Positions 3,261 through 20,081 of a stretch of 20,081 nt of DNA are shown in pieces. The stretch spans positions 1 to 20,081 of the forward strand of contig NW_021824126.1 of NCBI RefSeq assembly GCF_006345805.1, read 5' to 3'. Position numbers and translations under genes: made by a program. Origin of the DNA: Octopus sinensis. Taxonomy: Eukaryota. The notes beneath the pieces are model-generated. The model was not told the origin of the DNA. It made no database searches and saw only the letters and a list, made by a program, of their open reading frames with translations. Every line of letters begins with the position of its first letter. Within the stretch, counting starts at the first letter, position 1.

Positions 3261-3426
3261 GGCGCAGGAGTGGCTGTGTGGTAAGGACTGGCTTGCTTAC
3301 CGACCACATGGTTCCGGGCTGTCCCACTTCGTGGCACCTTGTGCAAGTGTCTTCTACTATAGCCTCGGACCGACCAATGCCTTGTGAGTGGATTTGGTAG
3401 ACGGAAACTGAAAGAAGCCAGTCGTA

Positions 3427-3467
<41 letters not shown>

Positions 3468-4054: not shown

Positions 4055-4238
4055 TTGGTTTCAAATTTTGGCACAAAGCCAGCAATATCAGGGTGGGTAT
4101 AAGTCAATTACATTGACTCCCCACCAGTGTTCGTTCAACTGGTAGTTATTTTATCGACTCCGAAAGGATGCAAGGCAAAAACGCCTTCAGTGGAATTTGA
4201 ACTCAGAACGTAAATACGGACGCTAAGCATTTTTTTTT
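4055..4238 (-). mobile_element. SINE-B, diverged subfamily with alternative tail, 5'-truncated
   Basis: Reverse complement reads 'atgcttagcg-tccgtatttacgttctgagttcaaattcc...catcctttcggagtcgataaaataactaccag...tttgtgccaaaatttgaaacc'. Confidence 0.85.
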
Positions 4239-4354
4239 ACACACAACATAATATTAATGAATGAGTGACAAGGGAACAGGAAACATGTAATCACTTCCAT
4301 TAGCATAAATGTTTAGCAAATGAATTTAATTATGAGATTCCTGTTCCATTCTCG

Positions 4355-4730: not shown

Positions 4731-5143
4731 GAGTGGCTGTGTGGTAAGTAGCTTACCTACCAACCACATGGTTCTGGGTTCAGTCCCACTGCGTGGCATC
4801 TTGGGCAAGTATCTTCTGCTATAGCCTCGGGCCGACTGATGTCTTGTGAGTGGATTTGGTAGACGGAAACTGAAAGAAGCCCGTCGTATATATGTATATA
4901 TATATATATATATATATAATGCGTGTGTGTGTTTGTGTGTCTGTGTTTGTCCCCCTAGCATTGCTTGACAACCGATGCTGGTGTGTTTACGTACCCGTAA
5001 CTTAGCGGTTCGTCAAAACAGACTGATAGAATAAGTACTGGGCTTACAAAGAATAAGTCCTGGGGTCGATTTTCTCGACTAAAGGCGGTGCTCCAGCATG
5101 GCCGCAATCAAATGACTGAAACAAGTAAAAGAGTAAAAGAGTA
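4731..5143 (+). mobile_element. SINE-A, nearly full length (tRNA-derived head, CORE-like block, internal microsatellite)
   Basis: A box 'tggctgtgtgg', B box 'ggttcagtccc', 'tcttgggcaagt' resembling the CORE-SINE motif, (TA)n(TG)n centre, tail repeats 'gtaaaaga'. Confidence 0.93.
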
Positions 5144-5316: not shown

Positions 5317-5698
5317 TACTCTTTACTCTCTTTTACTCTTTTACTTGTTTCAGTCATTTGACTGCGGCCATGCTGGAGCACCGCCTTTAAATCGAGCAAC
5401 TCGACCCCGGGACTTATTCTTTGGTAAGCCCAGTACTTATTCTATTGGTCTCTTTTGCCGAACCGCTAAGTAACGGGGACGTAAACACACCAGTATCGGT
5501 TGTCAAGCAATGCAAGGGGGACAAACACAGACACACAAACATATACACACACACGCATATATATATATATATACATATATACGACAGGCTTCTTTCAGTT
5601 TCCGTCTACCAAATCCACTCACAAGGCTTTGGTCGGCCCGGGGCTATGGTAGAAGACACTTGCCCAAGGTGCCACGCAGTGGGACTGAACCCGGAACC
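5317..5698 (-). mobile_element. SINE-A, slightly 5'-truncated, inverted relative to 4731-5143
   Basis: Reverse complement aligns along its length with the upstream copy, from 'ggttccgggttcagtcccac' to the 'gtaaaagagta' tail. Confidence 0.93.
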
Positions 5699-5909: not shown

Positions 5910-6150
5910 TATTTCTTTATTGCCCACAAGGGGCTAAACATAGAGGGGACAAACAAGGACAGACAAAAGGATTAAGTCGATTACATCGACCCCAGTGCGA
6001 ATATGGTAATTTATTTATCGAATCGACCCCGAAAGGATGAATGGCAAAGTCGACCTCGGCGGAATTTGAACTCAGAACGTAACGACAGACGAAATATCGC
6101 TAAGTATTTCGCCCGGCGCGCTAACGTGTCTGCCAGCTCGCCGCCTTTTA
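5910..6150 (-). mobile_element. SINE-B, full-length monomer with 17-bp target-site duplication
   Basis: Head 'ggcggcgagctggcagacacgttagc', B box 'gagttcaaattcc', block 'ttcatcctttcggggtcgat' resembling the Nin/Deu SINE domain (from memory), tail 'gggcaataaagaaata'. Direct repeat tttaggtatgaaatata at 5893-5909 and 6151-6167. Confidence 0.93.
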
Positions 6151-11217: not shown

Positions 11218-11430
11218 GGCGCAGGAATGGCTATATGGTGAGTAGCTTGCTTACGAACCACATGGCTTCGTGTTCAGTCCTGCTGCATGGCACCTTGGGC
11301 AAGTGTCTTCTATTATAGCCTCTGGCCGACCAAAGCCTTGTGAGTGGATTCGGTAGACGGAAACTGAAAGAAGCCTGTCGTATATAATATATATATATAT
11401 ATATATATAATATATATATATATATATTAT

Positions 11431-11480
<50 letters not shown>

Positions 11481-11710
11481 TGTATGTGTATGTATTTGTG
11501 TGTCTGTGTTTGTCCTCCCACCATCGCTTCACAACCGATACTGGTGTGTTTACGTCCCCGTAACTTAGCGGTTCAGTTTAAAGAGACCGATAAAATAAGT
11601 ACTAGGCTTACAAAGAATAATTTTGGGGTCGGTTTGTTCAACTAAAAGGCGGTGCTCCAGCTTGGCCGCAGTCAAATAACTGAGACAAATAAAACAAATA
11701 AAAGAATAAA
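11218..11710 (+). mobile_element. SINE-A, full length
   Basis: 'ggcgcaggaatggctatatggtgag' head, 'gttcagtcc' B box, 'ccttgggcaagtgtctt', (TA)n(TG)n centre, 3' body and A-rich tail. Confidence 0.93.
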
Positions 11711-17436: not shown

Positions 17437-17569
17437 TCTTTCCAATTTCAGCACCAGGCCAGCAATTTTGCGTTGTACGGTAGCCGATTACATTGACACC
17501 AGAGCTCAAAAACTACTTAATTTATCAACCCTGAACGGATGAAAGACAAAGTCAACCTCGGCGGCATTA
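17437..17569 (-). mobile_element. SINE-B, old 3' fragment with alternative tail
   Basis: 'aggccagcaatttt...gattacattgac...tttatcaaccctgaacggatgaaagacaaagtcaacctcggcgg'. Confidence 0.8.
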
Positions 17570-17790: not shown

Positions 17791-17906
17791 GGTGCGTGCG
17801 TGACACCTTAGCCTCCGACCGACCTAAGACCTTGTGATTTTCTTTGGTAGCCTCGTATATTAGCCTCGAAAAAAAATATGTGTGCGTGCGGTGTGTGTGT
17901 GTGTGT

Positions 17907-18284
17907 CTGTGGTAAGAAGCTTGCTTCCCAATCACATAGCTTCGGGTTCAGTCTCACTACGTGGTACCTTGGCCAAGTGTCTTCTACTACAGCCTCGGGC
18001 CGACCAGCCTTGTGAGCTTGTTTTGGCAGACGGAAACTGAAAGAAGCCCATCGTATTTATATATATATGTGTGTGTGAGGGGGGGGTGTTTGTGTGTCTG
18101 TGTCTGTCCTCCAAACATCTCTTGACAACCGATGCTGGTGTGTTTACGTCCCTGTAATTTAACGATTAGACAAAAGAGTCTGATAGAATAAGTACTAGGC
18201 TTATAAAGAATAAGTCTTGTGCGTATAATTGCTCGACTAAAGTTGATACTCCAGCATGGCCGCAGTCAAACGACTGAATAAAAG

Positions 18285-18702: not shown

Positions 18703-18739
18703 TGTTGTTGCTGTTGTGGTTGTCAATGACTACGTATGT

Positions 18740-18779
18740 ACTTCTACTACTATCACTACTACTACTATTACAACTACCT

Positions 18780-18836
<57 letters not shown>

Positions 18837-18839: not shown

Positions 18840-19777
18840 GTGAGCTGGCAGAAACGTTAGCACGCCGGGCGAAGGTATTCCGTCTGCCGATACGTTCTGA
18901 GTTCAAATTCCGCCGAGGTCGACTTTGCTTTTCATCCTTTCGGGGTCGATAAATTAAGTACCAGTTATGCACTGGGGTTGATGTAATCGACTTAATCCGT
19001 TTGTTTGTCCTTGTTTGTCCTCTCTGTGTTTAGCCCCTTGTGAGTAGTGAAGAAATAGGTATTTCGTCTGCTGCTACGTTCTGAGTTTAAATTCCGCCGA
19101 GGTCGACTTTGCCTTTCATCCTTTCGGGGTCGATTAAATAAGTACCAGTTACTCACTGGAGCCGATGTAATCGACTTAATCCATTTGTCTGTCCTTGTTT
19201 GTCTCTCCTGTGTTTAGGCCATTGTCGGTAGTAAAGAAATAGGTATTTCGTCTGCCTTTACATTCTGAGTTCAAATTCCGCCGAGGTCGACTCTGCCTTT
19301 CATCCTTTCGGGGTCGATTAAATAAGTACCAGTTACGCACTGGGGTCGATATAATCGACTTAATCCATTTGTCTGTCCTTGTTTGTCCTCTCTATGTTTA
19401 GCCCCTTGTGAGTAGTAAAGAAATAGGTATTTCGTCTGCCGCTACGTTCTGAGTTTAAATTCCGCCGAGGTCGACTTTGCCTTTCATCCTTTCAGGGTCG
19501 ATAAATTAAGTACCAGTTGCGCACTGGGGTCGATGTAATTGACTTAATCCCTTTGTCTGTCCCTGTTTCTCCCATCTATGTTTAGCCCCTTGTGGGCAAT
19601 AAAGAAATAGGTATTCCGTCTGTCTTTATGTTTTGAGTTCAAATTCCGCCGAGGTCGACTTTGCCCTTCATCCTTTCGGGGTTGATAAATTAAGTACCAG
19701 TTGAGTACTGGGGTCGATGTAATCGATTGCCCCCTCCCCCAAAATTTCGGGTCTTGTGCCTAGAGTAGAAACGAATA
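18840..19777 (+). mobile_element. SINE-B head-to-tail array: one head, four 184-bp headless units, and one terminal unit with a different tail
   Basis: Units start with 'ggtatt(t/c)cgtctg' at 18874, 19058, 19242, 19426 and 19610 (spacing exactly 184). Units 1-4 end 'aagaaata'. Unit 5 ends 'gccccctcccccaaaatttcgggtcttgtgcctagagtagaaacgaata'. Confidence 0.95.
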
Positions 19778-20081
19778 CGTATGTGTGTTTGGCTGTGTGA
19801 GTGTGTGTGTGAGGAGAGAGAAGAGAGAAAGGAGGGAGTTGGTATGTGTTGCTGAGAGGGTTCTTGGAGTTAAAAGATGGGGAGTTTGGAAGAGGAAAGG
19901 TAAGAGGTAGGGGTGAAAGATGAAGAGGGTAAAGGAATGGATTGAAGGCTTAGAAGATCGTTATGACTACGGGACTCTGTGTGTGTGTGTGTGTGTGCAT
20001 ATATAGGTGTTTTGTGTATGTGTGTGAGAGAAGAGGAAGAGGAGGAAGAGAGTAGTGTGTGAGTGTGGGAGGAGTGTCGTG

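What the first reader, a model, noticed from the sequence alone, without database searches (positions are those of the whole stretch)
18840..19777. SINE array built at one fixed nucleotide from different sequence variants: candidate self-targeting or RNA-concatenating SINE system
Seen: a single A-box head is followed by five bodies, each starting at the same internal base (GGTATT...) with exact 184-bp spacing. All four junctions read AAGAAATA|GGTATTYC, with no tail expansion, TSD or indel. The units are not clones. Units 1-3 end in 'gtagt(a/g)aagaaata'. Unit 4 ends 'gggcaataaagaaata', exactly like the free monomer at 5910-6150. Unit 5 has a wholly different tail, closer in style to the old copies at 4055 and 17437. 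Established: ordinary SINE 5' truncation is variable, and local tandem duplication yields near-identical units. Inference, two models. (a) New copies repeatedly integrate at one site inside an older copy and resolve their 5' end by homology with the resident head, giving a polarised, chronologically ordered record with the oldest unit distal. (b) The reverse transcriptase jumps end-to-end between SINE RNAs precisely cut at this position, as R2-type RTs can template-jump. I cannot tell whether this has already been described.
Basis: partly seen in the sequence, partly recalled or inferred. Interest (0 to 1): 0.8.

Follow-up and report, generated by a model that had tools for sequence, protein, structure and literature searches.

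The report
Self-targeting SINE stacks age-ordered arrays
A small jumping element in this animal genome sits at one exact base inside older copies of its own family tens of thousands of times, building short arrays that get older away from a single shared head, likely because its RNA pairs with that site and so aims itself.

Summary
Observation confirmed, and it is genome-wide. The exact junction 21-mer occurs 31,732 times (control 0). At least 27,111 of 71,143 exact B1 tails are followed by the body start. Model (a) is supported; co-insertion (b) and local duplication are not the main route. Terminal units are older than head-proximal ones (70:22), with a gradient among B units (39:15, 40:8). 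The target-site duplication (TSD) around arrays is as old as the host (55/854 mismatches vs 10/445). With marked old hosts the single head is a polarised chimera, host 5' and incomer 3'. Unresolved two-head insertions with a 15-17 bp TSD exist and are commoner in diverged hosts (11/67 vs 2/143). Only 12 of 124 adjacent pairs look clonal. Target choice follows the SINE's tail subfamily, also at non-SINE sites, which suggests RNA-flank pairing (inferred). The partner LINE and RNA 3' ends were not found. SINE arrays are published (bivalves, squamates, rodents); this mechanism was not found in nine searches. The scan had noted a different SINE concatemer elsewhere, not this system.

The parts
18840..18873 (+). 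Single tRNA-like head with an A-box-like motif; 5' end worn and last 9 nt of the usual head missing
   Evidence: ARAGORN finds no tRNA gene; box naming recalled
18874..19057 (+). Unit 1, B1 tail; shares a rare C at +7 with unit 5
19058..19241 (+). Unit 2, B1 tail
19242..19425 (+). Unit 3, B1 tail
19426..19609 (+). Unit 4, B2 tail (same end as the free monomer)
19610..19777 (+). Unit 5, older A1-type body and tail: inferred original resident (host) copy
18739..18836 (+). Trinucleotide microsatellite directly upstream of the head
18731..18739 (+). Candidate left copy of the host TSD (9 nt, matches 19776-19784; separated from the head by the microsatellite; uncertain)
19776..19784 (+). Candidate right copy of the host TSD (uncertain)
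5910..6147 (-). Free B2 monomer with a perfect 17-bp TSD; comparison copy
4055..4240 (-). Old A3-tailed copy of the same SINE group
17437..17568 (-). Old 5'-truncated A3-like copy

Best explanation
The array is one of tens of thousands built in place, with younger B-tailed SINE units sitting at one fixed base inside older genomic copies behind a single chimeric head, likely through repeated LINE-driven target-primed insertion that is likely guided by the SINE RNA's 3' flank pairing with that site. Steps. (1) Shown: B copies insert with about 16-bp TSDs. (2) Shown: about 40% or more of B1 tails sit at body +1 of another copy. (3) Shown: the distal unit and the outer TSD are old and the proximal units are young. 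(4) Shown: the head is host-type 5' and incomer-type 3'. (5) Inferred: the new cDNA's head anneals to the resident head, so no second head or inner TSD remains; when homology is poor, a two-head insertion with a TSD is left. (6) Inferred: read-through RNA from a copy already in an array ends in the next body's first bases, pairs with the nicked target and so favours the same site. Each self-insertion then recreates a source with the same aim. A minority of units (about 10%) come from local duplication.
For: Fixed site: 31,732 junctions; 27,111 of 71,143 B1 tails; 16 of 37 tails in loci not seeded on a junction. Age: non-CpG core divergence, terminal A1 0.063 vs unit 1 0.035, 70 higher, 22 lower, 8 tied of 100, p 2e-8; free A1 0.076, free B1 0.033. 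Unit 2 older than unit 1 in 39 vs 15 of 57; last B older than first in 40 vs 8 of 48. Outer TSD mismatches: arrays 55/854, free A1 7/140, free B 10/445; p 7e-4 vs B, 0.7 vs A1. Head markers in single-head arrays with A3 hosts: -29 host allele 39/56 (free A3 22/29, free B 5/44); -12 26/55 (21/29, 3/45); +12 5/53 (terminal units 45/67); polarity 15:2. Two-head forms carry the host start on both sides, private variants included (L273, L289, L321, L405); 11 of 67 A3-host arrays vs 2 of 143 A1/B-host arrays (p 8e-5). Non-SINE targets: 3,657 B1 tails are followed by the first four target bases plus a non-T; 16 of 18 TSDs carry those bases in the upstream copy too. B1/B3 flanks start with the site's first three bases in 22 of 58, B2 in 0 of 22, background 1.1%. 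Per-site use is roughly 85-fold higher in SINE bodies than at other matching hexamers (rough).
Against: No RNA 3' end was observed; the one RNA run laid was uninformative. No partner LINE sharing the tail was found among 50 RT loci. In A1-host arrays the head's CpG decay (0.10-0.12) is nearer free B (0.08-0.10) than free A1 (0.19-0.30), so little resident head seems kept there. About 25-28% of terminal A1 units begin with B-type +14/+16 alleles, against about 10% of free A1, which a strict cut at +1 does not explain. 12 of 124 adjacent B-B pairs share two or more rare variants. This window's own units show no gradient. The 85-fold figure rests on 7 and 48 sites in 20 random stretches. Most loci come from one chromosome and from exact-match seeds, which favour young copies.
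Confidence: 0.78

Rival explanations
1. Same in-place insertion, but the site is chosen by the partner LINE's endonuclease and chromatin, not by RNA pairing; the two heads may be collapsed later by deletion between direct repeats.
For: All B flanks share a TA at positions 3-4 (68 and 69 of 91), like a nuclease motif. Head-plus-TSD tandem runs of 65-67 bp show that adjacent heads do recombine.
Against: Preference differs between tail subfamilies that differ by 2 nt: B1/B3 go to the body site 334:5, B2/B4 22:36 (seed-biased), and 22/58 vs 0/22 at non-SINE sites. Use of the SINE site far exceeds use of other matching hexamers. Two-head forms are very rare (64 exact matches vs 31,732), even among young copies.
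Confidence: 0.25
2. DNA-level ectopic gene conversion copies an existing junction from one array into a monomer, with no reverse transcription.
For: It would give one head, an old outer TSD and chimeric ends. The 25-28% of terminal A1 units with B-type starts fit it.
Against: Breaks anywhere in the 115-nt shared core should give broad switch points, yet 57 of 67 terminal A3 units are host-type by +14/+16 and only 5-7 of 55 first units are. Two-head TSD forms and matching non-SINE targets need TPRT.
Confidence: 0.1
3. Arrays are inserted whole, either from multimeric read-through RNAs (Alu-like dimers) or by reverse-transcriptase template jumps between RNAs.
For: One TSD encloses the whole array in 53 of 91 cases. 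Divergence of first and last unit correlates weakly (rho 0.20). The window's shared +7 C in units 1 and 5 only would fit a multi-unit insertion into a host.
Against: The outer TSD is host-aged, not B-aged. There is an age gradient among units. Heads carry host-subfamily alleles that match the terminal unit.
Confidence: 0.06
4. Ordinary local tandem duplication or unequal crossing-over (SINE-derived satellite).
For: 12 of 124 adjacent pairs are clonal (control 0.2%), and long arrays such as L028 are locally homogenised. It is the published explanation for bivalve and squamate arrays.
Against: Adjacent units are nearly as far apart as units of different arrays (median 0.089 vs 0.098). Each window unit has 47-133 of 345 units elsewhere closer than any neighbour. 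Terminal units belong to other subfamilies. One junction recurs at over 30,000 places.
Confidence: 0.04

Closest known systems
Single-head tandem SINE arrays of the bivalve Scapharca broughtonii, TSD1-(SINE)n-TSD1 (PMC11481361; passages read)
   Same: First unit has the full tRNA head, later units are head-truncated at one position, and one TSD surrounds the array.
   Different: There about 3% of SINEs, with inner tails truncated, attributed to unequal recombination. Here about 40% or more of a subfamily, full tails, mixed subfamilies, an age gradient and chimeric heads.
SINE-derived satellites sSat1-3 of squamates (PMC10702118; parts 2-4 of 5 read)
   Same: Tandem units from part of a SINE, 130-215 nt, with a longer terminal unit.
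   Different: Treated as satellites made by duplication and homogenised, up to about 1000 units, subtelomeric. Here mostly 2-3 units, dispersed and not clonal.
Head-to-tail B2, Dip and Ves multimers of mammals (PMC8466645; passages read)
   Same: 40-49% of copies lie in multimers (B2, Dip); insertion of one SINE next to another was considered.
   Different: Units arranged head-to-tail, origin left open, insertion into the tail suggested. Here the site is internal, there is one head, and the order runs young to old.
R2/R1-type site-specific TPRT (PMC13580325 passages; PMC6007223 section 18)
   Same: Works like it: the RNA 3' flank pairs with the target primer, and the cDNA end anneals to upstream target homology for a seamless 5' junction.
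   Different: Those are autonomous elements with protein-defined rDNA targets. This is a non-coding SINE whose target is its own family and whose preference follows its tail subfamily.
RTE-mobilised SINEs whose TSD start follows the RNA 3' repeat (PMC6007223)
   Same: Target choice correlates with the RNA 3' end among near-identical SINEs.
   Different: Reported animal microhomology is 1-2 bases and involves no self-targeting; here it is 4-8 bases or more.
Octopus tRNA-derived SINEs of Ohshima and Okada 1994 (seen only as citations in PMC4824008 and PMC4758252)
   Same: Possibly the same family; the host taxon is inferred from recall, not from a call.
   Different: Sequence identity not tested; the paper was not read.

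Membership tests
tRNA-derived SINE | Short, dispersed, high-copy element | tested here: met
   About 235 nt; 71,143 exact B1 tails; 32 core hits in 180 kb of random DNA
tRNA-derived SINE | Variable TSDs at monomers | tested here: met
   28 of 40 B monomers, median 16 bp, control 0 of 40
tRNA-derived SINE | tRNA-like head with Pol III A and B boxes | tested here: inconclusive
   Box-like motifs seen by eye (consensus recalled); ARAGORN 0 genes in 6 sources; Rfam no relevant hit
tRNA-derived SINE | 3' end shared with a partner LINE | tested here: inconclusive
   No tail match in LINE 3' ends among 50 of 150 scored RT loci
tRNA-derived SINE | Pol III transcription | not testable with these tools
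   RNA reads cover the family on both strands, with no informative ends
SINE-derived satellite (sSat) | Tandem units from part of a SINE with a longer terminal unit | tested here: met
SINE-derived satellite (sSat) | Units made by local duplication and homogenised within a locus | tested here: not met
   12 of 124 adjacent pairs clonal; within 0.089 vs between 0.098
SINE-derived satellite (sSat) | Subtelomeric clustering of long arrays | not tested
   Matches are listed along chromosome arms, but no positional analysis was done
Dimeric SINE moving as one RNA (Alu-like) | All units and the TSD share one insertion age | tested here: not met
   Terminal unit and TSD are older than the proximal units
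Sequence-specific non-LTR retrotransposon (R1/R2-like) | Insertion at a fixed nucleotide of a repeated target | tested here: met
   partial, since about half of the copies insert elsewhere
Sequence-specific non-LTR retrotransposon (R1/R2-like) | Encodes its own RT and endonuclease | tested here: not met
   184-nt units with no room for such a gene; it works like one but is not a member
Sequence-specific non-LTR retrotransposon (R1/R2-like) | RNA 3' flank pairs with the target primer | tested here: inconclusive
   Indirect only: subfamily-linked target starts
Conserved-domain SINE superfamilies (Meta, CORE, V, Ceph) | Shared central domain | not tested
   No domain sequence was available in the passages read; supplements not opened

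The most novel reading that the evidence does not exclude
A non-coding retroposon that inherits its insertion target through its own RNA 3' flank: copies inside arrays make RNAs that home to the same base of other family members, so self-targeting is heritable and self-reinforcing, different subfamilies have locked onto different registers, and each array is a dated ledger of successive subfamilies.
Probability: 0.5. Interest if true: 0.85.

Novelty: new variant of a known kind. Interest (0 to 1): 0.72.

Why it matters
It gives a testable origin for single-head SINE arrays, which are so far ascribed to unequal recombination, and predicts the same signatures in bivalve and squamate arrays. It suggests that insertion specificity of a LINE machine can be set by the passenger RNA's flank at genome scale, a natural case of homology-guided TPRT. 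Inserting into old copies spares genes and renews the promoter head. Tens of thousands of polarised arrays order subfamilies in time without a molecular clock.

Tried and rejected
Rfam scan for a ribozyme or circular-RNA origin: nothing relevant. ARAGORN: no tRNA. The idea that unit 1 carries a duplicated host start: rejected in general, 1 of 46 rare variants shared at +1..+20, that one being this window. Partner LINE: 30 top RT loci plus 20 chromosomal ones of 150 scored (RTE-like and CR1/L2-like by eye, motif names recalled) share no tail. Public runs X2, X3, X7 (contigs) and X22 (RNA reads) were swamped by family copies, so they gave no orthologous-locus or transcript-end information. A genome-wide count of unoccupied head-body targets was not obtained, so per-site enrichment rests on a small sample. 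One search timed out and was redone. Paper searches returned nothing; one search returned only a MITE review. SINEBase (PMC3531059) was seen in a listing only. The earlier finding e1-6322684 was unrelated.

Full report
OBSERVATION. The window holds one SINE head (18840-18873) and five bodies 184 bp apart, with four identical junctions. Units 1-4 are 87.5-91.8% identical and unit 5 has another tail. The head lacks its usual last 9 nt. The window is a whole 20-kb contig of a 2.72-Gb genome. That it is an octopus-like animal is my inference from recall, not a call result. Tail names B1-B4 and A1-A3 are mine.

GENOME-WIDE. The junction 21-mer has 31,732 exact matches, control 0. Of 71,143 exact B1 tail 18-mers, 27,111 are followed by the first 8 body bases. 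This is a lower bound of 38%, and 16 of 37 tails in loci not seeded on junctions agree. A second register, 33 nt upstream in the head, has 2,742 matches. Among 317 junctions parsed in 271 sequences, 258 were at +1 and 41 at the head register (seeded, so biased). Arrays are short: 165 of 222 have two units and 50 have three. Chains were followed only through B tails, so inner units are B by construction. Terminal units are A1, A2, A3 or B.

NOT LOCAL DUPLICATION. Adjacent B units differ by a median 0.089, against 0.098 between arrays. 12 of 124 adjacent pairs share two or more rare variants (0.2% between arrays), so about 10% are local copies. For each window unit, 47-133 of 345 units elsewhere are closer than any neighbour.

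AGE ORDER. Over non-CpG core columns, terminal A1 units diverge 0.063, first units 0.035, free A1 0.076 and free B1 0.033. The terminal unit is higher in 70, lower in 22 and tied in 8 of 100 scorable arrays (103 examined); CpG decay is 0.15 vs 0.05. Unit 2 is older than unit 1 in 39 vs 15 of 57 arrays, and the last B is older than the first in 40 vs 8 of 48. Both hold without clonal arrays. This window's own four B units do not show the gradient.

BUILT IN PLACE. TSDs of about 16 bp were found for 28 of 40 B monomers, 9 of 24 A1 monomers and 53 of 91 arrays ending in A1 (shuffled controls 0, 1, 1); elements without a locatable head or tail were dropped first (45, 29 and 103 examined). Mismatches were 10/445, 7/140 and 55/854 (p 7e-4 against B, 0.7 against A1). 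The scar around an array dates from the host, so the B units came later, inside it. This is the main evidence against whole-array insertion and RNA-to-RNA jumping.

THE HEAD. Old A3 hosts carry head markers. Of 70 loci, 3 were dropped, 11 kept two heads and 56 had one. Host alleles stood at -29 in 39/56, at -12 in 26/55, at +12 in 5/53 and at +14/+16 in 7 and 5 of 55, while terminal units were host-type at +14/+16 in 57/67. Recombinant heads ran host-to-incomer 15 times and the reverse twice. Two-head forms show the host head, a 15-17 bp copy of the host start, a full new element and then the host body; by eye about 10 of 20 distinct loci are of this kind, some with private variants on both sides. 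They number only 64 exact matches and depend on host divergence: 11/67 for A3, 2/106 for A1 (one doubtful) and 0/37 for B hosts. Against a simple picture: in A1-host arrays the head's CpG decay is near that of B, and a quarter of terminal A1 units start with B-type alleles. Longer homology-driven replacement therefore also occurs.

WHAT AIMS IT. Outside SINEs, 3,657 B1 tails are followed by the site's first four bases and a non-T. Of 30 such loci, 2 were SINE bodies and 18 had a TSD, 16 of them with those bases in the upstream copy, so the match is target selection and not an added tail. B1/B3 flanks begin with the first three bases in 22/58, B2 in 0/22 (background 1.1%), and B2/B4 prefer the head register. 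A3 hosts with a C at +3 are avoided (8/67 vs 20/29). Hexamer-matched non-SINE insertions number about 2,150 (2,690 x 24/30) over roughly 725,000 sites, against 27,111 over roughly 106,000 SINE sites. That is about 85-fold, from counts of 48 and 7 sites. I infer extended RNA-primer pairing, with read-through RNA from array-resident copies supplying the flank. A shared TA at flank positions 3-4 suggests a nuclease motif as well. Neither the RNA ends nor the partner LINE was found.

LITERATURE. Seen: PMC11481361, PMC8466645, PMC13580325, PMC13282606, PMC4824008 and PMC4758252 as passages; PMC6007223 as passages and section 18; PMC10702118 parts 2-4 of 5. Single-head SINE arrays and SINE satellites are described and ascribed to unequal recombination. 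RNA-flank pairing and cDNA annealing upstream are established for R1/R2-type elements. Nine searches found no report of fixed-site self-insertion with age-polarised SINE arrays, nor of these arrays in cephalopods. Subscription papers, Repbase/Dfam notes, the 1994 octopus SINE paper and supplements were not seen and may bear on novelty.

VERDICT. Real, genome-wide, and best read as sequential self-targeted insertion with homology-resolved 5' ends (0.78). RNA-flank guidance is inferred (about 0.5-0.55). New variant of a known kind; interest 0.72.

Noticed in passing
L276-L280, L292-L296, G000:C3430:1375-2204: Tandem runs of a 65-67 bp head-plus-TSD unit (5-11 exact matches each) in front of a B body: two-head insertions that expanded instead of collapsing; multiplied A-box heads.
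   Followed up: partly
L097, L142, L377: B tails joined to the reverse complement of the SINE core at one recurring place: a possible third, antisense self-target that differs from the main site by one base.
   Followed up: no
L069, L171, L243: A1-type tails joined to older heads at the head register, so self-insertion predates the B subfamilies.
   Followed up: no
L444:2229-3918: An RTE-like LINE fragment with a dinucleotide tail splits a B tail at a matching purine run, showing 3' microhomology use by that LINE.
   Followed up: no
window 3321-3449, 4770-5050, 5421-5698, 11264-11574, 17900-18270: A second abundant short repeat family, split in the middle by a dinucleotide microsatellite, with inverted copies close together.
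   Followed up: no
L331-L360: The best-scoring RT matches lie on small contigs as many near-identical copies of families unlike the chromosomal LINEs; an active family or foreign DNA.
   Followed up: no
L028: A ten-unit array with shared CpG-depleted variants and alternating unit types, a locally amplified satellite-like case.
   Followed up: partly
window 18731-18836: The trinucleotide microsatellite begins right after a 9-nt match to the array's right flank and may have grown out of the host's left TSD copy.
   Followed up: partly
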